A stretch of 64,000 nt of DNA from Tepidisphaeraceae bacterium. GTDB lineage: Bacteria > Planctomycetota > Phycisphaerae > Tepidisphaerales > Tepidisphaeraceae. Every line of letters begins with the position of its first letter. Position 1 is the stretch's first letter. Shown piece by piece: positions 38,942-59,314 of the stretch. The notes under the pieces were generated by a model. That model did no database searches and was not told the DNA's origin. It saw only the letters and a program-made list of their open reading frames with translations. The stretch covers positions 89,058 to 153,057 of the forward strand of contig CBDFHW010000025.1 in assembly GCA_965247815.1 (NCBI GenBank), in the 5' to 3' direction. The position numbers and the translations under genes were made by a program.

Positions 38942-39424
38942 TTACTGTTTCCGTGACAAGGCATCGTATTTGGTCGCCAGATCGTTGAAACTTTTTATAG
39001 CCTGATCTCGCTCGGCTTCGACTCGTGAGATCACATCGTGTTGCTTGTTCAGCGCAACGGACTGTGCCTCGACTATCTTGTCCCGGGCCGATATCCCCTC
39101 GACGAACTTGCTCGTTAGCTCGTTCAACTTCTGATTGCGTGAACTCAACCTTTGGTTCTCAGTACGGACCGAGGTCAGCAGATTCTGCACCTTTTTAAGC
39201 TGATCTTCAGCCATCGCGAGACGGGTCCCGCGGTCGGCGCTTTCGGCTTCACTATCTTTAATTGTCGCCTCCTGAGTCGCGATCAACCTGGACTGCGAGG
39301 CATCCTTTTCGCGCGCCGCGACGATCGCACGGTCTAGATCACCATTGGTTTTCGATTGGACGAGGCACACCGCTGACAACGCCAGCAGGCCCGTTAGATT
39401 TAGATATTGGACGAGCTTGTTCAT
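38942..39424 (-). CDS. Periplasmic coiled-coil protein, hypothetical
   Basis: Signal peptide followed by Q/E/K-rich heptad repeats. Last gene of the exb/tonB strand block. Confidence 0.45.
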   Translation of the reverse strand: MNKLVQYLNLTGLLALSAVCLVQSKTNGDLDRAIVAAREKDASQSRLIATQEATIKDSEAESADRGTRLAMAEDQLKKVQNLLTSVRTENQRLSSRNQKLNELTSKFVEGISARDKIVEAQSVALNKQHDVISRVEAERDQAIKSFNDLATKYDALSRKQ

Positions 39425-39858
39425 CGACCGACCCGCTCGGCGGGGGGCCGGACGTCGAACCCGACTTTGTCGATTCCCGCTCCTCGGATCAGATCGAGAA
39501 CGCGTATAACGTCGCCGTTGCGTGCGTCGCGGTCGCCGTCGATGACCACACGCACGGCGGGGTTGCGTTCCCGGCTGGCTGCCAATTGTTGTCGAAGTTC
39601 GAGGTCGGTCACGCGCTTTCTGTTGAAGTACGTTAGCCCCGATTTGTCGACGGCAACGGTGACGACGTTTTTCATATCATCGCTTCGGGCCGTCCCCGCG
39701 ACGGGAAGATTTACCTTTAACGTCAGCGCGTGAACCATGCTCAGGCTCACGAGCATGAAAGACGCCAGCAAGAAAAACATGATGTCGATCAGCGGGACAA
39801 TTTCGATCCGCGCTTCGGCCGACTCGGTCAGCGACCGGGTGCTCAGCTTAATGGGCAT
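39421..39858 (-). CDS. exbD: Biopolymer transport protein ExbD/TolR
   Basis: ExbD signature ([19 protein letters not shown]) and periplasmic domain. ATG at 39858. Confidence 0.8.
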
Positions 39859-40561
39859 GTGCTGCCTCCCCGGTCGGCCGAGTCGCCCGCAGTCGGGCAA
39901 ACTGTTCGAGGTCGTGCCCGTGATGTTTCGCAGACTCTGCCAGCAGTTCAAAGTGGTTGATCGTGGTTTCGAGGCGCGACCGAAAGACGGACACCCGGCG
40001 GTTAAAATAGTTGTAGGGAATCAAACAAAAGATCGCGATGCCCAATCCGCACGCGGTCGCAATGAGCGCCTCTGCGATCCCGCCGCTGACTTTAGCCGCC
40101 GCGAGTTGCTCGTCACCGACGAAGCTAAATGATCGCATGATACCGGTGACGGTGCCGAGCAATCCCAGCAGTGGCGCTAGCGTGATGAGCGTGCCGAGCA
40201 CCCATTGAAGGCGTTCACCGCCTTCCAATTCCTTCGTGGCTTTCAACTGCATCGCGCCCAGAAACGAACTGTGTTCGTGCAGCAGGCCGGTTTTAACCGT
40301 GGCGACGAACGGGTCGTCGGACCGGTTCGAGAGTTCTAATGCCGCTGCGAAATCTCCCGTTGCGGCGGCTTCCAGGACCCGGTCGAGCAGACCCGGGTCC
40401 GAACGAATCCGCAGCGCCAACCACCAGAGGGATCGTTCGACGATTGCCGTTACGGCGAACAGCAAGGCGACTGCGATCGGCCACATTACCGGCCCGCCTT
40501 TTTGGAAGGTGTCCAGAATTATATTCGCGAGCGGGAGTGTCATCGGCTGGTCCAAGGTCAT
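39848..40561 (-). CDS. exbB: MotA/TolQ/ExbB proton-channel protein
   Basis: Three TM helices with conserved [17 protein letters not shown] at 40561. Confidence 0.8.
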
Positions 40562-41208
40562 CGGTGTCTTTGTTGATAGGTAATTGAGATTTCGTAATGG
40601 CGTTCCGGGCCGGGGGGGTACGTCCAGTTCTCCTTGATGCTTCGCTCCGCCGCCTGATCGAGCAGCGGCCACTGACATTTCCTGGAGACTTCGGCCGAAG
40701 TGACGGCGCCGTCTTCGCGAACGACGAACCGGACGACGACGGTTCCCTCCTGCCCCGCGAGTTGCGACTCGATCGGGTAGTCCGGCCGAGGCTGCTTACC
40801 GGCACCTGATCCGTAGGCGATCTTCCGGTAAGACGTCGTCGGGCCGGACGTCGCAGGCCGAGGCGGAGCGCGAGACGCGAAGTCGATCTGTTTCAGTGAG
40901 GCAGACAGACGCACTGGCACGACCGCCGGGAAGAAATCCGACACGAGCGGCAATGGTGGCACTGTCGGAAGCGGCACGTCATAGCCGGATGCCCGCGTTT
41001 CTGCGACCGACGCGGGCGAGACCCGCGCGTTGATCAATGAGACGTCAACGAATCGCACGTCTGTCCGAGCTTCGAACGGAACAGGTCGCGATGTCGGAGC
41101 AACAGACCGCCAGTAACCGGCGAGTCCGACGGTCAGGCAAGCGAGCCAGAGCACGAATGTCAGGACCGGTAGCAAGTCGATTCGGTGGGGTTCCGCATCA
41201 GAACGCAT
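40558..41208 (-). CDS. TonB-family energy transducer (C-terminal TonB domain)
   Basis: N-terminal TM anchor, Pro-rich spacer and a C-terminal block ([23 protein letters not shown]) typical of TonB_C. The start may alternatively be the GTG at 41262. Confidence 0.6.
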
Positions 41209-43339
41209 AGGCCAGACCCCCGAAGATAGCGCGGTGCGGTCCGTACTGGGCGGCGGCGACACCGACGCCCGAGCCGTCCCGGATCTGATAGTGTTCGTCG
41301 AACATGTTCAGTTCGTCGACCCGCAGCGTGACGTAATTGCGTTTCGAACCGTCGACGTGGAACCGCTGTTGAAAACCGACATTGACCGGGAAGTACTGCG
41401 GTTCTTTCTGCGAATTCGCGAACCCGCGGCGGAGCCCCGACCCGTAGAGCGCGTCGATGTAAACCAGCGTGTCCTTCCACGCGTACGACACGCCGAGAGA
41501 GGCGGTGTACTCCCCCTCATGGTCAAGTTTGATGTAGTGATTGTGGATGTACGCGAGCTCGTCATTTTCGAACAGGTACTGTTGAGAGATGATGTCTTTG
41601 CCCAGCGTGTTGACGTAAGAGAAATTACCGAACGCCGAGATCGGGCCCAGGGTGTATGTGCTGCTCAGTTCCGCGCCGAAGACTTGACCGAGCCGATAAT
41701 TGAACGGCGTGATGATGACTGCGTCGCCGAAGTGCCCGTTGTCCACGAGGTCGTGTGCGTCCTTGTAAAATCCGTCCACGCTGACCTTCCAAGCCTTGGT
41801 GACGTCACGGGAAATGCCGAGGTCGTAATAATTCGACCGCTCGACTTTCAACTGGCTGGAAATACGATTCTGCGACGCATTGGTCGTATTCTGGAAGCGG
41901 TCGACGGTCCCGATTCCGACGTACTGTAGGGGCGGCGGTACGAAATACCGGGAATAGCCTGCGTGCAAGGTCGTGGCTTCGTCGAGTTTGTAGACGAGAT
42001 TCACGCGGGGGCTCAGTTGTCCGCTGTCGGCGAAGTTCGTGTCGAAACGGTCGTAACGCAGGCCATAATTCAACGTCAATTTTTTGGTGAGCCGCCATTC
42101 GTCCTGAAGGTAAACACCTGCGGAAACGCCGTGATTCCCCGAGTCGTCGGCGAGATTAAGAGGCGTTGTTGATTGCTGTTGCCCTGCGACCGGGTCGACG
42201 GGAAAAACACCGGTGTTGGTCCGAAGCCGCTCGTTCGTAAAATCGGCCAGCACGCCTGCACGAATTGTGTGCTGATCGTTCAGGATGTATGAGCTGTCGA
42301 TCTGAAGGCCGTTGGTAAAGAAATCATTGCGGACTTCTCCCGCGACGCCTTGAAAGATCAGGTCGTTGGTCGAATCGGGCGTGAAATGAACCTGGCCGTA
42401 GCGTGTGAATGCGGCCGCTTGTACCGAAAAAGAGCCGGACGTCTTCTGGTAGGCGAGCACTGAGTAGTACTGCTGTTCGTTCTGATTTTCGTCGATCGAG
42501 ATCGAGTCGACCAACACCGCCTTGGGGCGCCCCGCGAGTGCGAACGCCGGCGGAAGCCCGGGCGTGTTCGGAATTTGAAAATCGGCATTCGAGGCGTTCA
42601 CCAACAGGCTGACCCGGCTGGTATCGTCGATGTGATAAGAGAGATACGTGAAAATCTTTTGCTGATTCGTTCTGTCGTGAAGCGCCTGGTAACCGGGTGT
42701 CGGGTTGTCGATTCCCAGGTCGTTGTGCAGTAGTGAACCGGTGACGAAATAGTCCAGTTTCCCGACAGTGCCGCCGGTCTCGAACGACGGCTCGTACGTC
42801 TGGTTGCTCCCGCCGTACAGAGAAATCTCTGTTTGATCGAGGGACTCCCCCGACTTGGTCTGTACGTCGACGATGCCGGCCGTGCGGAACCCGAACTGCG
42901 CGGGGAGGCTTCCGTCGATCAGCGTGATGGATCGGATCAGGTGCGAATCGAGTTCCTGGCCGAACCCGTTTAGGCCTTCGGGAAGAGTGACCCCATTTAA
43001 CCGATAAGTTAGATTCGCGTGTTCGCCGCGGACGTGCTCCTGCCCGTAGGAATCCTGCACGACCCCGGGCGCGCGGAGCAGAACCTGCTGTCCGGTGGCG
43101 TTCGCGCCGCCCGGCGTTGCAGCGATCTGCTGAGCGCCGATGGTGTAAGTCTGCGCGCCGAGCGGGGGCGCGATGTTGCTCCGAGCCGCGTCGAGGTCCG
43201 AGTCGACGATCACGCTTCCCTGGTCGGTTCCTCCGGGAACGGCGTCGGGGATCGAGGGTCGGGTGTCACCAATGCCCGCGCTGCTGGCTGGCGAGACTTC
43301 TGTCGACGCCTGGGCGATGGCGGGCATCGTGGAATGCAT
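41198..43339 (-). CDS. TonB-dependent outer-membrane receptor (plug + 22-strand barrel). Signal peptide lies upstream of an in-frame TGA.
   Basis: Plug-domain motifs and C-terminal ...FGGLAYAF. In the same frame, 43561-43460 encodes MLMHTHGNRWVLAVAGLCTPALGQTLPTSQPFGT followed by TGA (43459-43457). Confidence 0.8.
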   Translation of the reverse strand: MHSTMPAIAQASTEVSPASSAGIGDTRPSIPDAVPGGTDQGSVIVDSDLDAARSNIAPPLGAQTYTIGAQQIAATPGGANATGQQVLLRAPGVVQDSYGQEHVRGEHANLTYRLNGVTLPEGLNGFGQELDSHLIRSITLIDGSLPAQFGFRTAGIVDVQTKSGESLDQTEISLYGGSNQTYEPSFETGGTVGKLDYFVTGSLLHNDLGIDNPTPGYQALHDRTNQQKIFTYLSYHIDDTSRVSLLVNASNADFQIPNTPGLPPAFALAGRPKAVLVDSISIDENQNEQQYYSVLAYQKTSGSFSVQAAAFTRYGQVHFTPDSTNDLIFQGVAGEVRNDFFTNGLQIDSSYILNDQHTIRAGVLADFTNERLRTNTGVFPVDPVAGQQQSTTPLNLADDSGNHGVSAGVYLQDEWRLTKKLTLNYGLRYDRFDTNFADSGQLSPRVNLVYKLDEATTLHAGYSRYFVPPPLQYVGIGTVDRFQNTTNASQNRISSQLKVERSNYYDLGISRDVTKAWKVSVDGFYKDAHDLVDNGHFGDAVIITPFNYRLGQVFGAELSSTYTLGPISAFGNFSYVNTLGKDIISQQYLFENDELAYIHNHYIKLDHEGEYTASLGVSYAWKDTLVYIDALYGSGLRRGFANSQKEPQYFPVNVGFQQRFHVDGSKRNYVTLRVDELNMFDEHYQIRDGSGVGVAAAQYGPHRAIFGGLAYAF

Positions 43340-43671
43340 CGTCTGCGAGGTCGCGGGAAGTCGAGCCGACCTCGCGACTTGTTCTTTTGCCGCTTGAACT
43401 TCCGAATTACTCCGGTCGAGAAAGTCTTCGTATTGCCGGAGTGAGGAGTCGGGTTGTCATGTTCCGAATGGTTGCGAGGTGGGCAGAGTCTGGCCGAGTG
43501 CCGGCGTGCATAGGCCGGCGACAGCCAACACCCAGCGATTGCCGTGTGTGTGCATGAGCATTCTCCAAATTCAGAGGTTAATCGGCTGTGAAAGGTGCAG
43601 ACGCCGAGTACTCGCGCGTTACCGTGGGCGCTAATTGCGTATAGGTTTCGCTGAGGAATCGGCGTCAGATA

Positions 43672-44013
43672 TCAGGCGGGAATGATCACAGGCGGACCCC
43701 GGCAGTCGACGCGAAGCGTTGACAGTCGAGGAACCGGAGTTGTGGCAAACTGGGTTAAGAACGCGATGAGTAATCCGAGACTGATAAGGATCGGAATCCA
43801 GCCGATGACCGCAAATGGCAGGTGCAGCTGGGCATGGATAGCGCAGTTGGAATCGTCATGGTGGAGGGGGTGAGTGGGCTCACCGGTCACAGAAGCTGCC
43901 GCGTCTTCGCGCCTGTCGTCAGCGGTGTGCTGCAGATTGTGTACGTACTCAGCAGCCCCCGAACCCAAGGCGAGGAAAACGATCACCAGAAAAGAGGCTA
44001 CACTGCGATTCAT
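43672..44013 (-). CDS. Small membrane protein with His-rich motif (HPLHHDD), first gene of the TBDR operon
   Basis: ATG at 44013. Signal/TM segment, conserved Cys and His, and a second TM. Resembles small DUF2946-type proteins found upstream of some TonB-dependent receptors (low confidence). Confidence 0.4.
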   Translation of the reverse strand: MNRSVASFLVIVFLALGSGAAEYVHNLQHTADDRREDAAASVTGEPTHPLHHDDSNCAIHAQLHLPFAVIGWIPILISLGLLIAFLTQFATTPVPRLSTLRVDCRGPPVIIPA

Positions 44014-44135
44014 CGAGACGGCTTCTCCAATCAGCACAACCAATTTCGAACCTGACTTATTTCAGCCTACAAATTTTTTCTCGACTTGCGGCATTTCGAC
44101 TGACGCCCGAGAAGGGTGTCATGCGAGGCGTCTGC

Positions 44136-45077
44136 TCAAGTTCCGGCGTCGACGAAACGCTTGGTGATGTCGCCGTAGGCGTCGATTCTGCGGTCACGCA
44201 GGAACGGCCAGTGGGTTCGGCTGAACTCGACCTTCTCCAGGTCGCAGGGGACGATCATCACTTCTTCTTTGTCGACCGACGCCTTCTGGGCGATCTGTCC
44301 ATTGGGCGCGCTGACAAAGGACTGGCCCCAGAATTCGATGCCGTCGGCGCTCACCGGTTTGCCGGTCGCGTCGAGGATGTGCTCGACGCCGATGCGGTTG
44401 GGCGAGCAGGTGTAGCACCCGTTGGCGACGGCGTGGCTGCGCTGGATCAGTTCCCAGCTGTCGTGCTGGGCATGGCCGTACTCCTGCTTTTCCGACGGAT
44501 GCCAGCCGATGGCGGTGGGGTAAAAAAGGATTTCCGCGCCCTGCAACGCGGTGAGCCGTGCGCCTTCGGGATACCACTGGTCCCAGCAGATCAGCACGCC
44601 GATCTTGGCGTACGTCGTGTCCCATGCTTTGAACCCTGTGTCACCCGGGGTGAAATAAAACTTTTCGTAATAAAGCGGGTCGTCGGGAATGTGCATCTTG
44701 CGGTAGATGCCTTTGATTGATCCGTCCGTCTCAATAATCGCGGCCGTGTTGTGGTAGAGCCCAGCGGCCCGCTTCTCGAACAGGCTGGCGATGATCACGC
44801 ACTTATATTTCTTAGCGATCTTTCCCAACGCATCGGTGCTCGGCCCGGGGATGGTCTCGGCGAGTTTGAAAAATCGGTGGTCTTCCACCTGGCAGAAATA
44901 CTGCGACGCGAACATCTCCTGTGTGCAGATGATTTGCGCCCCTTCGCGGGCCGCCTTTTCGACAAGCCGAATTTGATTGCGGCGGTTCACGGCCGGGTCG
45001 GCGACGCAGGCCATCTGCGTCAGCCCTACCTGCACCACACGGTCCGATTTTTCAGCGACAGCGCGACGTTGTTTCAT
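44136..45077 (-). CDS. aguB: Carbon-nitrogen hydrolase, N-carbamoylputrescine amidase-like
   Basis: Nitrilase-superfamily catalytic triad context (E in CTQEMF, K in IYRKMHIP, C in VLICWDQWYPE). ATG at 45077. Confidence 0.75.
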   Translation of the reverse strand: MKQRRAVAEKSDRVVQVGLTQMACVADPAVNRRNQIRLVEKAAREGAQIICTQEMFASQYFCQVEDHRFFKLAETIPGPSTDALGKIAKKYKCVIIASLFEKRAAGLYHNTAAIIETDGSIKGIYRKMHIPDDPLYYEKFYFTPGDTGFKAWDTTYAKIGVLICWDQWYPEGARLTALQGAEILFYPTAIGWHPSEKQEYGHAQHDSWELIQRSHAVANGCYTCSPNRIGVEHILDATGKPVSADGIEFWGQSFVSAPNGQIAQKASVDKEEVMIVPCDLEKVEFSRTHWPFLRDRRIDAYGDITKRFVDAGT

Positions 45078-50116: not shown

Positions 50117-51454
50117 ATGAAACTAGTTCATCGATACTTCATTCTGTTGATCACATCGGCCGGGCTGACCGGTTGTGGCAATCCGCCGAAGCCGTCGCAG
50201 TCAGTCGACGAACTGGTTGTCCATCGAGTAGGGCTCCAAGTTCAACATGCCGGGGAGCAGCCGCAAAGCGTCCGGGATGTGATTGCCCAGCTGATCGCGC
50301 GTCCTCTGTCGGCCGAGTCGGCCAGCCGGATAGCGCTGCTGAACAACCGCGAGCTTGCCGTCCAACTCGAAGAAGTCGGGATCGCCGAAGCCGACTATAT
50401 CGCCGCGGGGCAGATCAAAAACCCCGCGATCTACGCCGACTTTCGCCCGCCCGATCGCCGTCCCCCCAGTGGCGTCGACATTGAAGCTTCGATCACAGAA
50501 GACGTTCTCGACATCCTGCTGCTTCCGCTGCGGAAGCGAATCGCTCAGCAGCAGCTCGACCGCGTGGCAGTCCTTTCCGCTGATGTCGCGTTGCAGCTGG
50601 TTCTCGATGTTCGAGTCGCATTCTACGGTATGGTGACGCACGGCCAGGATTTGAAACTGCAACAGCAGCTAAACGCGGCCGCCGAGGCGTCGGCGGACTT
50701 CGCCCGCCGCCAGCACGACGCGGGAAACATCAACGACCTGGACTGGGCCAACCAGCAGGCCAATTATTCGGAAACTCAAATCCAGACGATCCACGCCGAA
50801 GCGATCCTGTCAGCCGACCGCGAAAAGTTAAATCGGCTTTTAGGTTTGACCGGCGACCAGACCCATTGGACGGCCGTCGACTCGCTCGACGCGATTCCCG
50901 ATCAGGACCCGGCAGAGCAGATTGATTTCGAGACCGCCGCGGCCCAGCGGCTCGACATCGCCGCCGCCTCCGGACAAGTGTTGCTCGCCGAGCAGGCATT
51001 GACCTACACGCAGAAGGGGCTGCTGACCGAGGTGCGGGTCGGTGCGAGTCTGGAGCACCAGACCGATCATCAGACCGTTGTCGGGCCTTCACTGTCGCTC
51101 GAGTTGCCGATCTTTAATCAGCACCAGGGACAGATCGCCCGCGCGGAGGCGGAGATCCGCCAGGCGAAGCGAAAGCGGGACGCGAGCCGGGTGCAGATGG
51201 AAGCCGAACTGCGTCTCGCCGCCGCACAAGTTCGCCAGGCAAGGTCCGCCGCGACGCTCGCCGAAAAAAGTTTGCTCCCGCAACGGAAAGCCGTGACCGC
51301 CGCCGCCCAGCTGCAATACAATGGAATGCTGATCGGGATTTATGCTCTGCTGGCTGCGAAGCAAAACGAATTGTTGTCGGCCCGCGAAGCGCTCGAATCC
51401 CGCCAGGACTACTGGGTCGCCAGGGCGCAACTTGACCGTGCCTCGGGAAAATAA
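50117..51454 (+). CDS. TolC-family outer membrane efflux lipoprotein (outer membrane factor, CusC-like)
   Basis: Lipobox LTGC. Two OEP repeat halves and coiled-coil helices. Directly precedes the multicopper oxidase gene. Confidence 0.75.
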   Translation: MKLVHRYFILLITSAGLTGCGNPPKPSQSVDELVVHRVGLQVQHAGEQPQSVRDVIAQLIARPLSAESASRIALLNNRELAVQLEEVGIAEADYIAAGQIKNPAIYADFRPPDRRPPSGVDIEASITEDVLDILLLPLRKRIAQQQLDRVAVLSADVALQLVLDVRVAFYGMVTHGQDLKLQQQLNAAAEASADFARRQHDAGNINDLDWANQQANYSETQIQTIHAEAILSADREKLNRLLGLTGDQTHWTAVDSLDAIPDQDPAEQIDFETAAAQRLDIAAASGQVLLAEQALTYTQKGLLTEVRVGASLEHQTDHQTVVGPSLSLELPIFNQHQGQIARAEAEIRQAKRKRDASRVQMEAELRLAAAQVRQARSAATLAEKSLLPQRKAVTAAAQLQYNGMLIGIYALLAAKQNELLSAREALESRQDYWVARAQLDRASGK

Positions 51455-51502
51455 GTCACCGCCGGAGACTACCGTACGCCGGGGCTGTCTGGAGGGATCA
51501 CC

Positions 51503-52801
51503 ATGATGACTCGCAGAGACCTGATGACCGCTGCCGCGCTTGCGGGCGGTACCGCGTTGTTGCCCGGCGTGTCCACCGCATTCGCCGGTGACCCCTCCAC
51601 GCCACTGACGACGCAACCGACGACTCGGCCGTCTGATCCGAAGCTCCAGTACACGCCGGTGCACACTCCCAACGGCGTCACGCTGCCGTTCAAACTCGTC
51701 GACGGCGTGAAAGTGTTTCATCTGGTCTGCGAAGAGATTGAACACGAATTTATGCCCGGCCTGAAATCGCATTGCTGGGGATACAACGGCCGCACCAGCG
51801 GGCCGACGATCGAGGCCGTCGAAGGCGATCGCGTCCGCATCTACGTCACCAATCGCCTGCCCGAAGCCACCACCACGCACTGGCACGGCCTGCGAATTCC
51901 CAACGGAATGGACGGTGTCAACGGCATGACCCAACCCGCCATTCAGCCCGGGGAAACCTTCAGATACGAGTTCACGTTGCCCGACCCCGGCACGTTCATG
52001 TACCACCCGCACCTGGACGAAATGACCCAGCAGGCGATGGGCATGATGGGCATGTTTGTCGTACATCCGAAGGTGACGACGGCAGAAAACCGGGTCGACC
52101 GTGACTACGCGATCATGTTGTCCGAATGGCGCATCGTGCCCGGCACCGCCCGGCCGGTGACGACCGAAATGCTCGACTTCAATGTCCTGACCATGAACAG
52201 CAAGTCCTACCCGGCAACTGCGCCGCTGGTCGCCCGTACCGGTGAGCTAGTCCGCATCCGGTTCGGGAATCTTTCGGCCATGGACCACCACCCGATCCAC
52301 CTGCACGGCTTTCAAACCGTGCTCACCGAAACCGACGGCGGGCTGGTCCCCAAGTCTGCCCGGTATTCTGCCAACACGACACTGGTCCCCGTCGGCGCGA
52401 CCCGGGTGATCGAATTCGTCGCCGACAACCCCGGCGACTGGGCCATGCACTGTCACATGACTCACCACGTGATGAACCAGATGGGCCACGACGTGCCCAA
52501 CGTCATCGGTATGAACAACAAGGGCCTGACCTCCAAAGTGCGTCCGCTGCTGCCGGGTTTCATGAGCATGGGTGAGAGCGGCATGGGCGACATGATGCAG
52601 ATGGAAACTCCGGCAAACAGCGTCCCGATGATGGGCGGCAAAGGCCAGTTCGGGCTCATCGACATGGGCGGGATGTTCACCGTCGTAAAAGTCCGCGACC
52701 AAATTACCGGCTACGAAGATCCCGGTGATTACCAGCACCCCGAGGGCACGGTCGCCTCGCTGGCCAGTACCGACGAACTGCGTCGCGACGGCATTCTGTG
52801 A
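51503..52801 (+). CDS. Multicopper oxidase (CopA/CueO-like) with Tat signal and Met-rich segment
   Basis: Twin-arginine signal TRRDLMTAAALAG. Copper ligand motifs HWHG, HPH, HPIHLHG and HCHMTHH. The Met-rich loop is MSMGESGMGDMMQM...MMGG. Confidence 0.9.
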   Translation: MMTRRDLMTAAALAGGTALLPGVSTAFAGDPSTPLTTQPTTRPSDPKLQYTPVHTPNGVTLPFKLVDGVKVFHLVCEEIEHEFMPGLKSHCWGYNGRTSGPTIEAVEGDRVRIYVTNRLPEATTTHWHGLRIPNGMDGVNGMTQPAIQPGETFRYEFTLPDPGTFMYHPHLDEMTQQAMGMMGMFVVHPKVTTAENRVDRDYAIMLSEWRIVPGTARPVTTEMLDFNVLTMNSKSYPATAPLVARTGELVRIRFGNLSAMDHHPIHLHGFQTVLTETDGGLVPKSARYSANTTLVPVGATRVIEFVADNPGDWAMHCHMTHHVMNQMGHDVPNVIGMNNKGLTSKVRPLLPGFMSMGESGMGDMMQMETPANSVPMMGGKGQFGLIDMGGMFTVVKVRDQITGYEDPGDYQHPEGTVASLASTDELRRDGIL

Positions 52802-52826
52802 TTGATCTTTTGTGCTGTTGTGTGCC

Positions 52827-53378
52827 ATGAACGAAACCAAGAAACCGATCAGCGATTGCAACGACCTCGCGACTCCCGTCGTCGAAGCCGACCACCAGCT
52901 CGGCCCGGCCGACGCGCCGGTCACGCTGGTGGAGTACGGCGATTACGAATGCCCGGACTGCCTGAACAGCGAGCCGATCGTAAAGCAGCTTCGCGATCAA
53001 CTCGAAGACCGGTTGCGGGTGGTGTTCAGGCATTTTCCCAGAAACTCCATCCACCCACGCGCCAGCGCCGCTGCCGAAGCGGCCGAAGCCGCCGCGGCAC
53101 AAGGCCGGTTCTGGGACATGCACGAAGCCCTGTTCAAGCACCAGCAAGAGCTGGTCGACGTGGACCTGACACACTTGGCGTTGCTGCTCGGCCTGGACGT
53201 TTACAAGTTCCAACAGGATCTCGATTCGCCGACGTCTCGTCGCCGGGTGCGTGACAACTACGACGACGCCGTCCGCAGCGGCGTCACCCGCACGCCGACG
53301 TTCTTTATCAACGGCTGCAGGCACGACGGGCCGAACGATTTCGACACGCTGCTCGCTGCGATCAACAGGTACGTCTGA
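52827..53378 (+). CDS. DsbA-family thioredoxin-fold oxidoreductase
   Basis: CPDC active-site motif in a thioredoxin-like context. ATG at 52827. Confidence 0.7.
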   Translation: MNETKKPISDCNDLATPVVEADHQLGPADAPVTLVEYGDYECPDCLNSEPIVKQLRDQLEDRLRVVFRHFPRNSIHPRASAAAEAAEAAAAQGRFWDMHEALFKHQQELVDVDLTHLALLLGLDVYKFQQDLDSPTSRRRVRDNYDDAVRSGVTRTPTFFINGCRHDGPNDFDTLLAAINRYV

Positions 53379-53589: not shown

Positions 53590-56500
53590 TCAATGAAAAT
53601 CGCGCGACCCCACACCGCCGTCCGAAATCAGATGGCTCAGGTCCGTCATCCGCATCACCATCACGTGAACGACCTTGTCCTGTCGTTCGACGTACCCCTC
53701 GGCCTGCACGAGCGTCGAATGTCTCGCGGCCTTTCGGTACCGATCGAACACCACCGGGCGGATGATCAGGTTCGCGATCCCCGATTCGTCTTCCAACGTC
53801 TCGAACACGATGCCGGACGCCGTCCCGGGCCGCTGACGGATCAGCACCAGCCCGGCGACACGGACCCATTTGCCGTGGGTCATGGTTGATAAATCCGCCG
53901 CCGGTGTGACGCGCATCTGCTTTAACTGCTGGCGGATCAACGCGACCGGGTGCCGCTTCAGCGACAGCCCCGCCGTGCGGTAATCGATCGTGACCTCCTG
54001 TGACATCGGCATCGTCGGCAGCGATACCCCGACCTCGGGCGCGGTGTCCTCGGTCAACCAGTCGAACAAAGGCATCGGTTCGCTGTGACATTTCATCACG
54101 TCCCACAACGCCTGCCTGCGGGACAACCCGAGCGAGCCGAAACCGTCGGCCTCGGCCAACGTCCGCAGCGCGTGTGGTGGCAAACCCGTCCGTCGGGCGA
54201 ACTGGTCGACGGACGTAAACGGGCCTCGTGTTCTAACTTCGATAACGCGGTCGGCGTGCGCCCGCCGTAGCCCCCGCACGCGGTTGAAACCGAGCTGCAC
54301 GACCGGCCCGCCGTGCCCCCAGTCCCAGGTGCGGCCGAAATCCGCGACGATCTCCGAATCACCGTGTGAATCATTTTCCGAAGATTCGGCTGTGACCAAA
54401 TCATTCTCGTCCAGTTCATAGCTGTGACCCCGAACACCAAGTGCATGCAGCGTGCATTCCCAACTGCTCTGATTCACGTCGACCGCCAGCACGATCACGC
54501 CGTGCGCCTGCGCGTCGCGGACGATCTGCGCCGGCGCGTAGAACCCCATCGGCTGGCTGTTCAGCAAACCGCAGCAGAAGACCGCCGGGTGGTGCCGTTT
54601 GATCCAGCAGGAGACATAAACCAGCAGCGCGAAACTGGCGGAATGACTTTCGGGGAAGCCGTATTCGCCGAACCCTTTGAGCATGTTGAAACATTGGTCC
54701 GCATATTCCGGCGTGTACCGCTTGGCGAGCATGCCGGCCAGGATCTTCTTGCGGAATTCCTCGACCGCGCCCCCGCGCTTCCACGCCGCCATCGCGCGCC
54801 GGAACCGGTCCGCCTCGTCCCCGGAAAACCCCGCCCCCTTCATCGCGATCTGCATCGCCTGTTCCTGAAACAACGGCACGCCCAGCGTCCGCTTCAGCAC
54901 CTCTTCCAGTTCCGCGCTCGGGTACACGACCGGTTCCAGCCCCCGCCGGCGGCGCAAATACGGGTGCACCATGTCCCCCTGGATCGGGCCCGGGCGCACG
55001 ATCGCGACTTCAATTACAAGGTCGTAAAACGTCCGGGGTCGCAGCCGGGGCAGCATCGTCATCTGCGCCCGCGATTCGATCTGGAACACCCCGACCGTGT
55101 CGGCGTCACAGATCATGTCGTAAACCAACTGGTCTTCCTGCGGGATCGTGTGCATCGCCAGCGGCGGGGTGCTCGGGTAAACCTGGTTGATCATCGTCAC
55201 GCACTTGGCGATGCACGTCAGCATCCCCAGCGCGAGCAGGTCGACTTTGAGAATTTTTAAATCGTCGATGTCCTGCTTGTCCCATTCGATGACGGTGCGG
55301 TCGGCCATCACGGCGTTTTCCACCGGCACCATCTCGCACAGCAGCCCGCTGGTCATGACCATCCCGCCGACGTGTTGACCCAGGTGCCGTGGGAACCCCA
55401 GCAACTGTTCGGACAAGTCGACGATCGTCCGCACCGTGCGGTCGTCGGGGTCGAGCCCGACCTCGGTCAACTTCTCCGGTGTCAGCGTGCCGCGGTCCCA
55501 CCAGTCGAGCCGCTTGGCCATCTGCTCGATCGTGTCCAGGCCGAGCCCCATCACTTTCCCCACGTCGCGCACGGCCGAGCGCCCGCGATACGTAATCACC
55601 TCGGCCGTCATCCCCGCCCGGTCCCGGCCGTATTTTTCGTACACATACTGAATCACTTCTTCGCGGCGTTCGTGCTCGAAATCGACGTCAATGTCCGGCG
55701 GTTCGTTCCGGGCCGCACTGACGAACCGTTCGAACAGGACGTTGATCTGGTCCGGGTTTACCGACGTGACGCCGATGCAATAACAGACCGCGCTATTGGC
55801 GGCCGACCCCCGGCCCTGGCACAAAATGTCGCGCGACCGCGCGAACCGGACGATGTCCTGCACGGTCAAAAAATACGCCTCGATCTGCAACTCGCCGATC
55901 AGTTTCAATTCCCGCTCGATCAGCGTTTTGACTTTCGGCGGAATTCCCTGCGGGTATCGCCCGGCCGCCCCTTCCCAGGCGAGCTCGGTCAGGTATTGCA
56001 GCTGCGTCTTCCCCGGTGAAGTCAGCTCGTGCGGGTATTCGTATTTCAGCTGGTCGAGATTGAATTGACATTGCTCGGCGATATCGAGCCCGCGCTGGAT
56101 GGCTGGCAAATAATCATCGAACAGCACGTGCATCTGCAGCGGCAATTTGAGATACCGTTCGCCATTTTGGAACAATCGGTATCCCGCCTCGTGGATCGTG
56201 CAGCCGTGCCGGACGCACGTCAGCACGTCCTGCAACCGCCGGCGGTCGGGGTGGTGAAAGTGCACGTCATTAGTCGCCAGCATCGGCACGCCGAACGCCC
56301 GGCTCAGCCAGTTAAGGTTCGACAACCGGGTCTGGTTGTCACTTTCATATACACACGACGCCGCGATCGACAACGATTTTCCGAACACGTCTTTCAACTG
56401 CCCCAGGTCCCGGGCGAACGTTTCCGGCACCGGGTCGGGCGGGACCACCGCAACGAGCAGGCCTTTGCCGTGATCGAACAGGTCGTGGATAGATAGATCG

Positions 56501-56883
56501 CATTCACCTTTGATCGTCCGCCGTTTGCCCAGCGTGAGCAGCTGGCACAGTCGCGCGTACGCCGCCCGGTCGGTCGGCCAGACCAATACATCAGGGTGAT
56601 TCGCCAGCACGAGCCGGGCGCCGACCACCAGTTTCAGCCCGACCTCTTTCGCCTTCACGTGCATGCGGACGATGCCGGCTACTGAATTGATATCGGTGAT
56701 GCCGATCGCGCGGTAACCCAGGTGGGCCGCCTGGATCACCAGTTCGTCCGGGTGCGACGCGCCACGCAGGAACGAAAAATTGGTCGTCACCGCCAGCTCG
56801 GCGTACTCGTACGGGCAGGCCCGCACCGTGATGTTCGACGGGGCCGCGGCGTCACGAAGTTTTGGATTAGGATGTTCGGGCAT
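53590..56883 (-). CDS. dnaE2: Error-prone DNA polymerase III alpha-like, DnaE2 (ImuC)
   Basis: 1097 aa. N-terminal PHP domain (AELAVTTNFSFLRGASHPDEL) and Pol III alpha core. Located downstream of imuA-imuB. Confidence 0.9.
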   Translation of the reverse strand: MPEHPNPKLRDAAAPSNITVRACPYEYAELAVTTNFSFLRGASHPDELVIQAAHLGYRAIGITDINSVAGIVRMHVKAKEVGLKLVVGARLVLANHPDVLVWPTDRAAYARLCQLLTLGKRRTIKGECDLSIHDLFDHGKGLLVAVVPPDPVPETFARDLGQLKDVFGKSLSIAASCVYESDNQTRLSNLNWLSRAFGVPMLATNDVHFHHPDRRRLQDVLTCVRHGCTIHEAGYRLFQNGERYLKLPLQMHVLFDDYLPAIQRGLDIAEQCQFNLDQLKYEYPHELTSPGKTQLQYLTELAWEGAAGRYPQGIPPKVKTLIERELKLIGELQIEAYFLTVQDIVRFARSRDILCQGRGSAANSAVCYCIGVTSVNPDQINVLFERFVSAARNEPPDIDVDFEHERREEVIQYVYEKYGRDRAGMTAEVITYRGRSAVRDVGKVMGLGLDTIEQMAKRLDWWDRGTLTPEKLTEVGLDPDDRTVRTIVDLSEQLLGFPRHLGQHVGGMVMTSGLLCEMVPVENAVMADRTVIEWDKQDIDDLKILKVDLLALGMLTCIAKCVTMINQVYPSTPPLAMHTIPQEDQLVYDMICDADTVGVFQIESRAQMTMLPRLRPRTFYDLVIEVAIVRPGPIQGDMVHPYLRRRRGLEPVVYPSAELEEVLKRTLGVPLFQEQAMQIAMKGAGFSGDEADRFRRAMAAWKRGGAVEEFRKKILAGMLAKRYTPEYADQCFNMLKGFGEYGFPESHSASFALLVYVSCWIKRHHPAVFCCGLLNSQPMGFYAPAQIVRDAQAHGVIVLAVDVNQSSWECTLHALGVRGHSYELDENDLVTAESSENDSHGDSEIVADFGRTWDWGHGGPVVQLGFNRVRGLRRAHADRVIEVRTRGPFTSVDQFARRTGLPPHALRTLAEADGFGSLGLSRRQALWDVMKCHSEPMPLFDWLTEDTAPEVGVSLPTMPMSQEVTIDYRTAGLSLKRHPVALIRQQLKQMRVTPAADLSTMTHGKWVRVAGLVLIRQRPGTASGIVFETLEDESGIANLIIRPVVFDRYRKAARHSTLVQAEGYVERQDKVVHVMVMRMTDLSHLISDGGVGSRDFH

Positions 56884-56934
56884 AGCGCACGGGTCGGTGT
56901 CTCACGGTGTGACGATGTCACGGTGTCGCGCGGG

Positions 56935-58635
56935 TCAACATTTTCCGTGCAGGTACCACTTCCGCGTCTCGTCCACCTGGAACAGCCAGAACCGCTGCCC
57001 CGACTGGTCTTCGACGTCGAAATAGTCCCGCGTTTTATTCCGGCCCTCCCACCACGACCCGGTGATCCGTTCCGGCCCGTTGCGGTGAACCAGGTTGAAC
57101 GCCTCGCCGGCGTGGGTGAACGAAATCGGCAGGTCTTCGCCCAGTTCGTTGGACATCATCGCGCACCCGATTTCGATCGGCTCGGGCAACAGGTGCAGCG
57201 GCCGCGATTTGATCTCCCTGTGGGTTGATTCGACCGGCGTCGGGGGGACCAATTTGAATGCCGGGTTGGACACCGGCAATAGCGAGCTGGTTTGCGCCGT
57301 CGCCTGCCGTGGTTTTTTCTTCTGTACTGCCGGCCGTTTGTGCGTCGCGAAGCTGACCGCCTTTTCCGGCAGATGCGATTCCACCGGGGTCGGGAACGCC
57401 ACCGCCGCTTCCCCGAGCCGCACCCGAAGCCGTTCGATCAGGTAATCGATTTCCCCCTCGGCCAGCTGCGCTTCGCGGTCCAGCAGGTGCAGTTGCTCGA
57501 GCGTCAGCCGTTCGAACACCGGCACCGAAAGCCGAAGACCGGCAAACCCGTCGTTGCCGCATTTCACCGTCTCGGTCGCACACCGCAGCAGGTTCCAAAG
57601 GCCCGTCAGGTCGACGGTGGGGCGCGACAGCTGAATCGTTTTCGTCACCGGCGGCAGACCATTCAGAAGAAACTCGGCCACCAGCGTCCGGGCCCCGCAC
57701 CCCCGCTGATGAAGCTCGTGCAGAACGTCTTTCAGCAGATGTTTGCACGCCTGCCAGAGATCGGTCAGCGAATCGACACCCCCTTCGAATTCCATCCCGG
57801 CAACGACCGGTTGAAAATGCGCGATCGGCAACAACGGTTCGGGCGTCCGCCCCAGCGCCTGGTCCAATCGTTTCAACACCGTCGTGCCGAACCGCGCGGG
57901 CAGCGTTTCGCGGGGCAATCGCACCAGTTGCCCGATGGTTTCAATGCCCAGTGAATGAAAAGTCCGCACGAGATCGTTACCCAACCGCAGAAAAGAAACC
58001 GGCAACGGCGCGAGCGCGGCGGGAAGCTGATCAAGATCGAAAATACGCGCGCCCCGAGATCCCGAAGAACTCTCCGAGCGATGTTGCGCCCGGCTCTTTC
58101 CCGGATCAGAAGGTCGTGACGCCAGCGCCCACGCCGCACCGGGCGTCGGCGCGATCGCGATGCCGTGACGCAGTTTCAACCGGCTGAGCGATTCGGTCGC
58201 CAGCCCCAGCAACCGGTCCATGCCCGAAAAAAGCCGTTCGCTGCCGGTCACGTCCAGGAACAAAGCATCCGGCGGTTCGACCGCAACCACCGGGCTGAAT
58301 CGCACCATCCACCGCGCCAACGCCTGCAGCGCCTGCAGATCTTTATCGGGCCGATGATCCAGATGCGCGAGCCCCGTACACAACGCCCGAGCCTCGGCCA
58401 GCGACATGCCCGGGACCACCCCCGCGGCCGTCGCGTTCGCACAAGCAAACGTCACCAATTGCCGCGCCGCCACCGTCCGAATCAACACCAAGGACGGACC
58501 CGATATCGAACCAACAGACCCCGAGGTCTTCAGACTTCTTTCGGATTTCGGATTTCGGATTTCGGATTTACAACTAGCCTGTCGCTGTTTTCGGTTGACC
58601 CGGTCGATGGGCCATTGGTTCAACCGCACGCACAT
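56935..58635 (-). CDS. imuB: ImuB, Y-family polymerase-like mutasome component
   Basis: ImuB-type N-terminus (MCVRLNQWPIDRV ... VPGMSLAEARALC). Sits between imuA and dnaE2. The start overlaps the imuA 3' end. Confidence 0.75.
   Translation of the reverse strand: MCVRLNQWPIDRVNRKQRQASCKSEIRNPKSERSLKTSGSVGSISGPSLVLIRTVAARQLVTFACANATAAGVVPGMSLAEARALCTGLAHLDHRPDKDLQALQALARWMVRFSPVVAVEPPDALFLDVTGSERLFSGMDRLLGLATESLSRLKLRHGIAIAPTPGAAWALASRPSDPGKSRAQHRSESSSGSRGARIFDLDQLPAALAPLPVSFLRLGNDLVRTFHSLGIETIGQLVRLPRETLPARFGTTVLKRLDQALGRTPEPLLPIAHFQPVVAGMEFEGGVDSLTDLWQACKHLLKDVLHELHQRGCGARTLVAEFLLNGLPPVTKTIQLSRPTVDLTGLWNLLRCATETVKCGNDGFAGLRLSVPVFERLTLEQLHLLDREAQLAEGEIDYLIERLRVRLGEAAVAFPTPVESHLPEKAVSFATHKRPAVQKKKPRQATAQTSSLLPVSNPAFKLVPPTPVESTHREIKSRPLHLLPEPIEIGCAMMSNELGEDLPISFTHAGEAFNLVHRNGPERITGSWWEGRNKTRDYFDVEDQSGQRFWLFQVDETRKWYLHGKC
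58541..58568. repeat. Heptanucleotide microsatellite (TCGGATT)x4 in the imuA/imuB junction
   Basis: Four perfect tandem copies at 58541-58568, 5 nt from the imuA stop (58574-58576) and inside the 5' coding region of imuB (encodes KSEIRNPKSE). Confidence 0.9.
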
Positions 58636-59314
58636 GATTTGTCTCACGGCAGACCTCCAGAAGAACGTTTTTCCCCACACGTCCTCCGTGACCGTGAATC
58701 AATTCCACCGACACCCGCTGGAGCATCCGCTCCCCGCGGGCCGGGGTTACTTTCCATCGCGTGGCGGCGGCGTAGGGCCACGCGACGGCCTCCGCCGGGC
58801 GCAGCAACACACCGATCCCGCCCCCGCGCTCGGCCGCCAACTGCAACCGCCTCGCCTGCACCCGCGTCAACCGGCCCGCCGGGGTAATGCACGCGGCCAC
58901 GCCCCGGCACCGAAGACACTCGGTCACCGCCCAGAGCCCTTCCGCCATCGTCGCCGGCCGCAACACCAGCAGGCGTTCCATCGGGATGCCCAGCGCCAAT
59001 AACGCCGGCGGATACAGGTCCCGGTCGAAATCGCACCAGACGATCATGCCAACCCGCGACTCCGACTGAATCGCCGATCGCGCCAGCAAGGCAGGCAACA
59101 AGAACGGCATCCGCGCCGCCTGCGATTTCACACCGCCTACGCCGTTGAGCACCTCGTGCACGGCCCCGCGGACGAACGCCCCCTCGGGCAACATCTCGTC
59201 CAAAGCCGACAACCCGGTAACCAGCTTCCGCGACCCGCCACCCGCGCGACCGGGCAAATGCCCGAGCCCGGGCAGCGTCCGCAACAACCCACCGACAGAC
59301 GTAATGACATGCAC
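58574..59314 (-). CDS. imuA: ImuA (SulA/RecA-like) mutasome component
   Basis: RecA-fold-like P-loop region. First gene of the imuA-imuB-dnaE2 cassette. GTG start at 59314. Confidence 0.7.
   Translation of the reverse strand: MHVITSVGGLLRTLPGLGHLPGRAGGGSRKLVTGLSALDEMLPEGAFVRGAVHEVLNGVGGVKSQAARMPFLLPALLARSAIQSESRVGMIVWCDFDRDLYPPALLALGIPMERLLVLRPATMAEGLWAVTECLRCRGVAACITPAGRLTRVQARRLQLAAERGGGIGVLLRPAEAVAWPYAAATRWKVTPARGERMLQRVSVELIHGHGGRVGKNVLLEVCRETNHVRAVEPMAHRPGQPKTATG

What the first reader, a model, noticed from the sequence alone, without database searches (positions are those of the whole stretch)
43457..43561. TonB-dependent receptor split from its own signal peptide by an in-frame TGA
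In the same frame as the 713-aa receptor (41198..43339), positions 43561-43460 encode a canonical signal peptide, MLMHTHGNRWVLAVAGLCTPALG-QTLPTSQPFGT, which then hits TGA (43459-43457). The frame is open again through to the receptor. Without this segment the receptor has no signal peptide. Possible explanations are a recent nonsense mutation (pseudogene), a sequencing error, or stop-codon readthrough.
Basis: seen in the sequence. Interest (0 to 1): 0.55.

Follow-up and report, generated by a model that had tools for sequence, protein, structure and literature searches.

The report
Receptor gene broken by one stop codon
A gene for an outer-membrane nutrient receptor is cut off from its own export signal by a single premature TGA stop codon, most likely an ordinary recent knock-out mutation or less likely a base-calling error, and not a special decoding mechanism.

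Summary
On the minus strand, one frame encodes a ribosome-binding site, a start codon and a signal peptide (43555..43493). It continues into a short linker, hits TGA at 43459..43457, stays open for 39 more codons that contain no start codon, and then enters the 713-aa TonB-dependent receptor ORF (41198..43339).

The signal peptide is not a chance ORF. It aligns without gaps to residues 1-32 of the closest ortholog (50% identity, E = 2e-8), and the closest orthologs cover the whole read-through protein. In about 155 homologous loci with complete upstream sequence, the stretch from signal peptide to plug is always uninterrupted.

The codon aligned to the TGA is Ser or Thr (TCG, ACA, ACG). One C>G change from TCA would explain it.

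Nothing points to recoding:
- No ortholog has Cys at this position.
- There is no Rfam/SECIS hit and no unusually stable RNA fold.
- TGA, including TGA-C, is the normal stop codon in this window.

The rest of the receptor and its operon look intact, so the change is recent or an artefact. I found no sequence from the same species, so a real null allele (about 0.6) cannot be separated from a consensus error (about 0.3). This is ordinary and of low interest.

The parts
43562..43566 (-). Shine-Dalgarno-like GGAGA, 6 nt upstream of ATG 43555
   Evidence: Sequence. The same GGAGA/GGAAA-N6-ATG CAC arrangement is present in orthologous loci L001, L082 and L083.
43553..43555 (-). Probable true start codon (MHTHGNRW...).
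   Evidence: Orthologs start MHTR/MHAR at the aligned ATG.
43493..43555 (-). Signal peptide coding segment, MHTHGNRWVLAVAGLCTPALG. Predicted signal-peptidase I cleavage is ALG|Q.
   Evidence: Ungapped alignment to residues 1-32 of P0002, E = 2e-8. The same M-H-x-R...A-x-A|Q pattern occurs in most of the 120 listed family members. The cleavage site is inferred from the A-x-A/G rule.
43460..43492 (-). First part of the Ser/Thr/Pro-rich linker after the signal peptide (QTLPTSQPFGT)
   Evidence: Aligns to QTAPTTNPAAT of P0002.
43457..43459 (-). Premature in-frame TGA, followed by C at 43456
   Evidence: The aligned codons in orthologs are TCG (Ser), ACA (Thr) and ACG (Thr). One C>G change from TCA (plus-strand position 43458) is the most parsimonious origin.
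43340..43456 (-). 39 open codons of linker downstream of the TGA, with no ATG/GTG/TTG. Contains the family's short conserved 'L-x-x-S-N/D-x-x-L' segment.
   Evidence: Alignment with P0002, P0121, P0004, P0009, P0017, P0027 and P0040. 'CAA CCC GAC' directly after the TGA matches 'CAA CCC GAT' of P0004.
41198..43339 (-). TonB-dependent receptor body (713-aa ORF as listed). Public gene calls start 4 codons further in, giving 709 aa (P0001).
   Evidence: PF00593 at 1.2e-28 and PF25183. 70-73% identity to full-length orthologs. Deviates at only 4 of 215 highly conserved family columns, which is within the family range.
43199..43219 (-). TonB-box-like strand GSVIVDS at the start of the plug (orthologs: GNVVVTS)
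   Evidence: Alignment. Calling it a TonB box is an inference from its position and its resemblance to the known consensus.
43672..44043 (-). Conserved upstream 123-aa His/Cys-motif membrane protein (weakly DUF2946-like), first gene of the cluster
   Evidence: 43% identity, E = 8e-30, to the ORF upstream of P0002. A small ORF sits in the same position in L082-L085. DUF2946 hits are below threshold, E = 0.002-0.02.
40558..41262 (-). TonB (start codon uncertain; the listed ORF overlaps the receptor's 3' end)
   Evidence: PF03544 at 6e-16. Same gene order in orthologous loci.
39848..40678 (-). ExbB
   Evidence: PF01618 at 6.3e-27.
39421..39951 (-). ExbD
   Evidence: PF02472 at 1.1e-26.
38942..39424 (-). 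160-aa coiled-coil-like protein, last gene of the conserved cluster
   Evidence: An unannotated 140-166-aa ORF follows ExbD in L082-L085. No Pfam family and only weak coiled-coil NCBIfam hits.

Best explanation
A single-base substitution turned a Ser/Thr codon in the variable linker just after the signal peptide into TGA. The most parsimonious change is TCA to TGA, a C>G on the coding strand at window position 43458. I think the change is most likely real, meaning a recent loss-of-function allele of an otherwise intact TonB-dependent receptor gene.

Expected consequences:
- Translation starts at the conserved SD and ATG (43555) and ends after 32 codons.
- No start codon exists before ATG 43339, and that ATG has no SD. 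Any product made from it would lack a signal peptide and could not reach the outer membrane.
- Full-length receptor could arise only from background near-cognate read-through of UGA. That would place a tolerated residue in a non-conserved linker.
- The long untranslated stretch may also lower expression of the downstream tonB-exbB-exbD genes through polarity.

Shown here: the interruption, the homology on both sides of it, its uniqueness among homologs, the lack of decay, and the lack of recoding signals. Inferred: that the base is real, the ancestral codon, the fate of the products, and polarity.
For: - Homology on both sides of the TGA to uninterrupted orthologs.
- Orthologous codons at the site are TCG, ACA and ACG.
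- Every homologous locus with complete upstream sequence has an unbroken ORF from signal peptide to plug: 140 by an automatic test plus 15 checked by eye. Short public gene calls (P0025, P0091) are start miscalls, not interruptions.
- The conserved SD-ATG sits at 43555, and no start codon lies between the TGA and 43339.
- The receptor body shows no excess of changes at conserved columns: 4 of 215, against a family median of about 3.
- The neighbouring operon genes and 10 other large genes in the window give full-length domain matches, and operon-style 4-nt gene overlaps are preserved. The assembly therefore looks clean here, which makes a random base error less likely than a real allele.
- From general knowledge: TonB-dependent receptors are frequent phage and bacteriocin receptors, and null alleles of them are commonly selected.
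Against: - No reads and no sequence from the same species were available, so the base call at 43458 is unverified.
- The complete lack of other damage is equally what a sequencing error would give.
- The ortholog in a long-read MAG (L002) carries two frameshifts, which shows that assemblies of this lineage can contain errors.
Confidence: 0.6

Rival explanations
1. The TGA is a base-calling or consensus error. The organism has a sense codon (probably TCA, Ser) there and makes a normal 785-aa precursor with its signal peptide.
For: - The gene is otherwise perfect: no decay at conserved columns, and intact SD, start and signal peptide.
- The operon is intact.
- One base explains everything.
- The genome is known from a single contig in a single assembly.
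- A related long-read MAG has obvious frameshift errors in its ortholog.
Against: - No other broken gene was seen among the genes checked in the 64-kb window, so the local error rate appears low.
- Substitution errors that create a stop are much rarer than real nonsense alleles in a typical genome. This is a prior argument from general knowledge, not measured here.
Confidence: 0.3
2. The UGA is functionally decoded. Either selenocysteine is inserted, as in the recently described Sec-containing TonB-dependent receptors, or read-through is programmed or efficient, so that full-length receptor is made at a set, possibly regulated, level.
For: - Sec-containing TonB-dependent receptor families exist (NCBIfam NF049944/5/6; PMC12013277 and PMC13188914).
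- UGA is intrinsically leaky in E. coli K-12, about 2-4% with a reporter (PMC10570021).
- The stop is followed by C, which I recall as a weak termination context in E. coli.
- A 7-bp inverted repeat begins 14 nt after the UGA.
- The linker would tolerate any inserted residue.
Against: - Orthologs have Ser or Thr at the site, never Cys.
- The protein scores 30-52 bits against Sec-type receptor models whose cut-offs are 700-850.
- No Rfam family, SECIS models included, matches at E <= 10.
- The fold after the UGA is no more stable than shuffled sequence (z = 0.04).
- None of about 155 homologous loci has a stop there.
- TGA ends 29 of 42 likely genes in the window, 9 of them as TGA-C, so this context terminates normally here.
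Confidence: 0.05
3. The receptor natively starts at ATG 43339 or 43327, as public gene calls have it. The upstream 34-codon ORF would then be a separate leader peptide or a chance ORF.
For: Public annotation calls a 709-aa protein from ATG 43327 (P0001).
Against: - The upstream ORF is homologous to the N-terminus of the orthologs (E = 2e-8), and so is the stretch after the TGA.
- The downstream ATGs have no SD and are not conserved Met positions.
- The resulting protein has no signal peptide, which an outer-membrane barrel requires.
Confidence: 0.02

Closest known systems
Nonsense-mutation pseudogenes or null alleles of TonB-dependent receptors (e.g. phage- or colicin-resistant fhuA, btuB and fepA mutants of E. 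coli; general knowledge)
   Same: A single premature stop near the 5' end of an otherwise intact receptor gene. The signal peptide is translated but the barrel is not.
   Different: Here the allele is seen only once, in an uncultured Planctomycetota-type genome. No phenotype, selection history or read support is known.
Selenocysteine-containing TonB-dependent receptors (NCBIfam NF049944 PUIUD-type, NF049946 CU-type, NF049945 FCYXU-type; PMC12013277, PMC13188914)
   Same: A TonB-dependent receptor ORF containing an in-frame TGA.
   Different: In those families the U sits in a conserved Cys-containing motif and has Cys homologs and a SECIS. Here the TGA lies in a variable linker aligned to Ser/Thr, the protein is far below the family cut-offs, and no SECIS-like signal was found.
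Background UGA read-through by Trp-tRNA in bacteria (E. coli reporter and native nudL; PMC10570021)
   Same: This could yield a few percent of full-length product from this UGA. The inserted residue would sit in a tolerant linker.
   Different: Nothing shows that read-through is raised or selected here. The read-through rate in this lineage is unknown.

Membership tests
TonB-dependent receptor | C-terminal 22-strand beta-barrel domain (PF00593) | tested here: met
   PF00593 E = 1.2e-28, 101.6 bits against a cut-off of 27; PF25183 at 42 bits.
TonB-dependent receptor | N-terminal plug domain with a TonB box | tested here: inconclusive
   Pfam Plug (PF07715) was not reported at E <= 0.01. The plug region is still strongly conserved with orthologs (GSVIVDSDLD...VRGEHANLTY) and includes a TonB-box-like strand.
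TonB-dependent receptor | Cleavable Sec-type signal peptide contiguous with the mature protein | tested here: not met
   The signal peptide is present and homologous, but a TGA separates it from the body.
TonB-dependent receptor | Genomic association with TonB-ExbB-ExbD | tested here: met
   The three genes lie directly downstream. The same order is seen in L082-L085.
Recent nonsense pseudogene / null allele | Orthologs are uninterrupted across the site, and sequence on both sides of the stop is homologous to them | tested here: met
Recent nonsense pseudogene / null allele | The stop is real in the organism (read support) | not testable with these tools
   No reads. No sequence from the same species: the P0001 cluster has 1 member on 1 contig, the DNA pattern scan gave 0 hits, and the best relatives are 68-72% identical.
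Recent nonsense pseudogene / null allele | Further decay (extra stops, frameshifts, loss of conserved residues) | tested here: not met
   No further interruption. 4 of 215 conserved columns deviate, a typical value for the family. If the allele is real, it is therefore young.
Bacterial selenoprotein (Sec-type TonB-dependent receptors NF049944/5/6) | Score above the family cut-off | tested here: not met
   52.2, 29.5 and 42.2 bits against cut-offs of 850, 825 and 700.
Bacterial selenoprotein (Sec-type TonB-dependent receptors NF049944/5/6) | UGA aligned with Cys (or Sec) in homologs | tested here: not met
   The aligned residues are Ser or Thr, or a gap.
Bacterial selenoprotein (Sec-type TonB-dependent receptors NF049944/5/6) | SECIS hairpin just downstream of the UGA | tested here: inconclusive
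   No Rfam hit at E <= 10, and the fold has z = 0.04 against shuffles. A 7-bp stem 14 nt downstream exists, and the very loose bacterial SECIS pattern would not exclude it.
Bacterial selenoprotein (Sec-type TonB-dependent receptors NF049944/5/6) | selA/selB/selC/selD present in the genome | not testable with these tools
   Only 64 kb is available. No tRNA genes were found in the window.
Programmed stop-codon read-through | The stop codon is conserved at the site in related genes | tested here: not met
   0 of about 155 homologous loci have it.
Programmed stop-codon read-through | A special context or structure distinguishes it from ordinary stops | tested here: not met
   TGA-C ends 9 of 29 TGA-terminated likely genes in the window. 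No significant structure was found.

The most novel reading that the evidence does not exclude
The UGA is decoded at a biologically useful rate, either as Trp by read-through or as Sec. A bacterium would then set or regulate the level of an outer-membrane TonB-dependent receptor, and through polarity its dedicated TonB-ExbBD system, by stop-codon read-through placed right after the signal peptide.
Probability: 0.04. Interest if true: 0.6.

Novelty: already known. Interest (0 to 1): 0.12.

Why it matters
It matters little beyond annotation. Public gene calls give a 709-aa 'receptor' with no signal peptide. The correct description is an interrupted gene (pseudogene or null allele) whose ancestral form is a roughly 785-aa precursor starting at 43555.

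If the allele is real, this population has recently lost, or almost lost, one uptake channel. That would fit the common pattern of receptor loss under phage or bacteriocin pressure.

The survey also shows that several shorter orthologs in public databases are start-codon miscalls. Their N-terminal signal peptides are simply not annotated.

Tried and rejected
- **Riboswitch or other RNA element in the 5' region.** Rfam gave nothing at gathering thresholds over the whole window or at E <= 10 on 43250..43750.
- **SECIS or read-through-stimulating hairpin.** The fold is no better than shuffles.
- **Recurrent interruption in the family.** I suspected this from the shorter ortholog calls (P0010, P0023, P0025, P0091 and others). 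The two checked at DNA level, P0025 and P0091, have open upstream frames with signal peptides, so they are start miscalls. P0069/L002 has two frameshifts in the plug of a long-read MAG, a different kind of defect.
- **Genome-wide TGA reassignment.** Rejected, because TGA is the main genuine stop codon.
- **Other in-frame-stop genes in the window.** Three same-frame adjacent ORF pairs turned out to be normal gene boundaries.
- **+1 or -1 frameshifting at the site.** Rejected, because homology continues in the zero frame directly after the TGA (QPD matches QPD of P0004) and there is no slippery sequence.
- **Search for alleles from the same species.**
  - Exact look-up of P0001 returned no contig, and its cluster has one member.
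  - A 23-base pattern around the site gave 0 hits in the metagenome contigs.
  - Protein-guided scans found best relatives of only 68% (genomes) and 72% (metagenomes).
  - A protein search with the N-terminal 150 aa alone returned nothing, not even the self hit, so it was uninformative.
- **Promoter and terminator consensus scan of 43300..44200.** Nothing found.

Full report
**Observation**

The layout, in order, is:
- GGAGA at 43566..43562, then ATG at 43561 and a second ATG at 43555.
- The peptide (ML)MHTHGNRWVLAVAGLCTPALGQTLPTSQPFGT.
- TGA at 43459..43457, followed by C.
- 39 open codons (QPDSSLRQYEDFLDRSNSEVQAAKEQVARSARLPATSQT) with no ATG, GTG or TTG.
- ATG 43339, which opens the 713-aa ORF ending at 41198.

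All of this is in one frame. The downstream ORF starts MHSTMPAIAQASTEVSPASSAG... and has no hydrophobic core, so on its own it has no signal peptide.

**Is the upstream ORF real coding sequence?**

Yes. A search with the conceptual read-through protein found the public call of this gene (P0001, 709 aa, one contig of 511,555 bp). It also found many orthologs of 750-800 aa from Planctomycetota/Phycisphaerae/Tepidisphaeraceae-type metagenomic genomes. P0002, P0004 and P0009 cover 100% of the query at 64-70% identity.

Their N-termini read MHTRHALWASVVLGLCLRALAQTAPTT..., MHARNALWVAAVVCLGNVAIAQTT... and so on. The window's 32 residues align without gaps to residues 1-32 of P0002, with 16/32 identical and E = 2e-8.

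The multiple alignment continues through the TGA into a shared 'L-x-x-S-N/D-x-x-L' segment, the Ser/Thr/Pro-rich linker and the plug. At DNA level the SD-N6-ATG-CAC arrangement is shared. This points to ATG 43555 as the true start. The codons right after the stop (CAA CCC GAC) match CAA CCC GAT of P0004.

Most of the 120 listed family members begin with the same kind of signal peptide.

**What sits at the TGA position elsewhere?**

The aligned codons are TCG (Ser) in P0002, ACA (Thr) in P0004 and ACG (Thr) in P0017. TCA is one step from each of these and from TGA. The simplest history is therefore a single C>G change on the coding strand, at plus-strand position 43458. This is an inference.

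**Is the interruption a family feature?**

No. I collected 164 homologous loci from species-representative genomes and JGI metagenomes and walked upstream in frame from the plug.
- 140 loci have an obvious signal peptide in the same open stretch by an automatic test.
- The 15 non-edge loci that failed my strict test also have one when read by eye.
- The remaining failures are cut by contig ends.
- The closest JGI relative (L086, 72% identity) is also uninterrupted.
- The shorter public calls checked at DNA level (P0025, P0091) are start-codon miscalls with open upstream frames.
- Only L002, a long-read MAG, is damaged, and it is damaged differently: two frameshifts inside the plug.

**Recoding?**

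Several checks argue against it.
- No Rfam family matches, either over the whole window at gathering score or at E <= 10 on 43250..43750.
- The 86 nt around and after the UGA fold no better than shuffled sequence (z = 0.04). A 7-bp inverted repeat does start 14 nt after the stop.
- NCBIfam contains Sec-type TonB-dependent receptor models (PUIUD, CU, FCYXU), and such selenoproteins have been reported (PMC12013277, PMC13188914). This protein scores only 30-52 bits against cut-offs of 700-850, and only over the barrel.
- Sec positions normally align with Cys. Here the aligned residues are Ser or Thr.
- TGA ends 29 of 42 likely genes in the window, nine of them as TGA-C. Neither the codon nor its context is generally read through or reassigned.
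- The window has no tRNA genes. The Sec machinery cannot be assessed from 64 kb.

Background UGA leakiness is well documented, at about 2-4% in E. coli K-12 reporters (PMC10570021). It could give a trace of full-length precursor, and any inserted residue would sit in a variable linker. That would be a by-product, not a mechanism.

**State of the gene and its neighbours**

The receptor body is a TonB-dependent receptor beta-barrel (PF00593 at 1.2e-28, PF25183). Against 69 relatives it departs from the consensus at 4 of 215 columns that are at least 93% conserved. The family median is about 3 and the range is 0-10. There is no sign of relaxed constraint.

The gene sits in a conserved cluster:
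- a 123-aa His/Cys-motif membrane protein (43672..44043), 43% identical to the ORF upstream of P0002 (E = 8e-30), with only sub-threshold DUF2946 similarity;
- the receptor;
- TonB, ExbB and ExbD;
- a 160-aa coiled-coil-like protein.

All of these are intact. Ten other large genes in the window give complete domain matches, and operon-style 4-nt overlaps are preserved. Three same-frame adjacent ORF pairs are ordinary gene boundaries. The local assembly looks clean.

**Real or artefact?**

This is the one question the tools could not settle. The protein's 90% cluster has a single member on a single contig. An exact look-up found no other contig. A 23-base pattern spanning the site has no match in the metagenome contigs. 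The nearest relatives are 68-72% identical.

I favour a real, recent null allele (about 0.6) over a consensus error (about 0.3), for two reasons:
- The window shows no other sign of assembly error.
- Real nonsense alleles are, in general, much more frequent per genome than substitution errors that happen to create a stop. This is a prior from general knowledge.

Null alleles of TonB-dependent receptors are also a classic route to phage or bacteriocin resistance (general knowledge). The pristine state of the rest of the gene fits both readings equally.

**Consequences if real (inferred)**

- Ribosomes start at 43555 and release a 32-residue peptide.
- Re-initiation could occur only at ATG 43339 or 43327. 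These have no SD and would give a cytoplasmic protein that is not exported.
- More than 2 kb of untranslated mRNA could expose the transcript to Rho-dependent polarity, which would lower expression of the dedicated tonB-exbB-exbD genes.

**Verdict**

This is an ordinary single-codon interruption of a conserved gene. It is an annotation point (pseudogene or possible error), not a new mechanism. Interest is low. The only novel reading not excluded is functional UGA decoding, at about 4%.

Noticed in passing
window 43672..44043 (-); also L001:133-504, L082:3575-3913, L083:3577-3951, and upstream regions of many loci: A small membrane protein (about 110-135 aa) with conserved His/Cys motifs (window: EYVHNLQH...HHDDSNCAIHAQLH...DCRGPP; others: SPQLHxxxHxDAxxxxHxC) precedes this receptor family in Planctomycetota, Verrucomicrobiota and other phyla. 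It has no Pfam or NCBIfam family at threshold, only sub-threshold DUF2946 hits (E = 0.002-0.02). It could hint at a metal-related substrate for the receptor.
   Followed up: partly
L084:1540-2100 and L085:1590-2100 (proteins P0025, P0091; probably also P0010, P0023, P0106, P0108): Public gene calls for several orthologs start at an internal Met or Val just before the plug. The upstream frame is nevertheless open and encodes a normal signal peptide and a Pro/Thr-rich linker, so these are start-codon miscalls.
   Followed up: yes
L002:2500-3400 (OY969903.1, Phycisphaerales MAG MFD01213.bin.c.1): The ortholog in this 4.9-Mb single-contig MAG switches frame twice within about 100 nt of the plug region, which explains the truncated 599-aa call (P0069). 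It is either long-read indel errors or a true pseudogene.
   Followed up: partly
window 53590..59314 (-): A DnaE2-like error-prone polymerase (1097 aa; DNA_pol3_alpha, finger, PHP) lies next to an ImuB-like IMS-family protein (581 aa) and a further ORF of about 246 aa. The layout matches the imuA-imuB-dnaE2 SOS mutagenesis cassette.
   Followed up: no
window 50117..53378 (+): An outer-membrane efflux protein (OEP) is followed by a multicopper oxidase with a twin-arginine-like leader (MMTRRDLM...) and a further 188-aa ORF. This looks like a copper-handling cluster about 7 kb from the receptor operon.
   Followed up: no
(NCBIfam NF049944, NF049945, NF049946): NCBIfam now holds three selenocysteine-motif TonB-dependent receptor families (PUIUD, FCYXU, CU). 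An in-frame TGA in a TonB-dependent receptor is therefore not automatically a pseudogene in Sec-using bacteria. This window's protein is not a member.
   Followed up: yes
window 43385..43445 (-): A 7-bp inverted repeat (ACUCCGG...20 nt...CCGGAGU) begins 14 nt after the UGA. It is not more stable than chance. Its 3' arm lies in the conserved L-D-R-S-N coding segment, and its 5' arm lies in variable sequence.
   Followed up: yes
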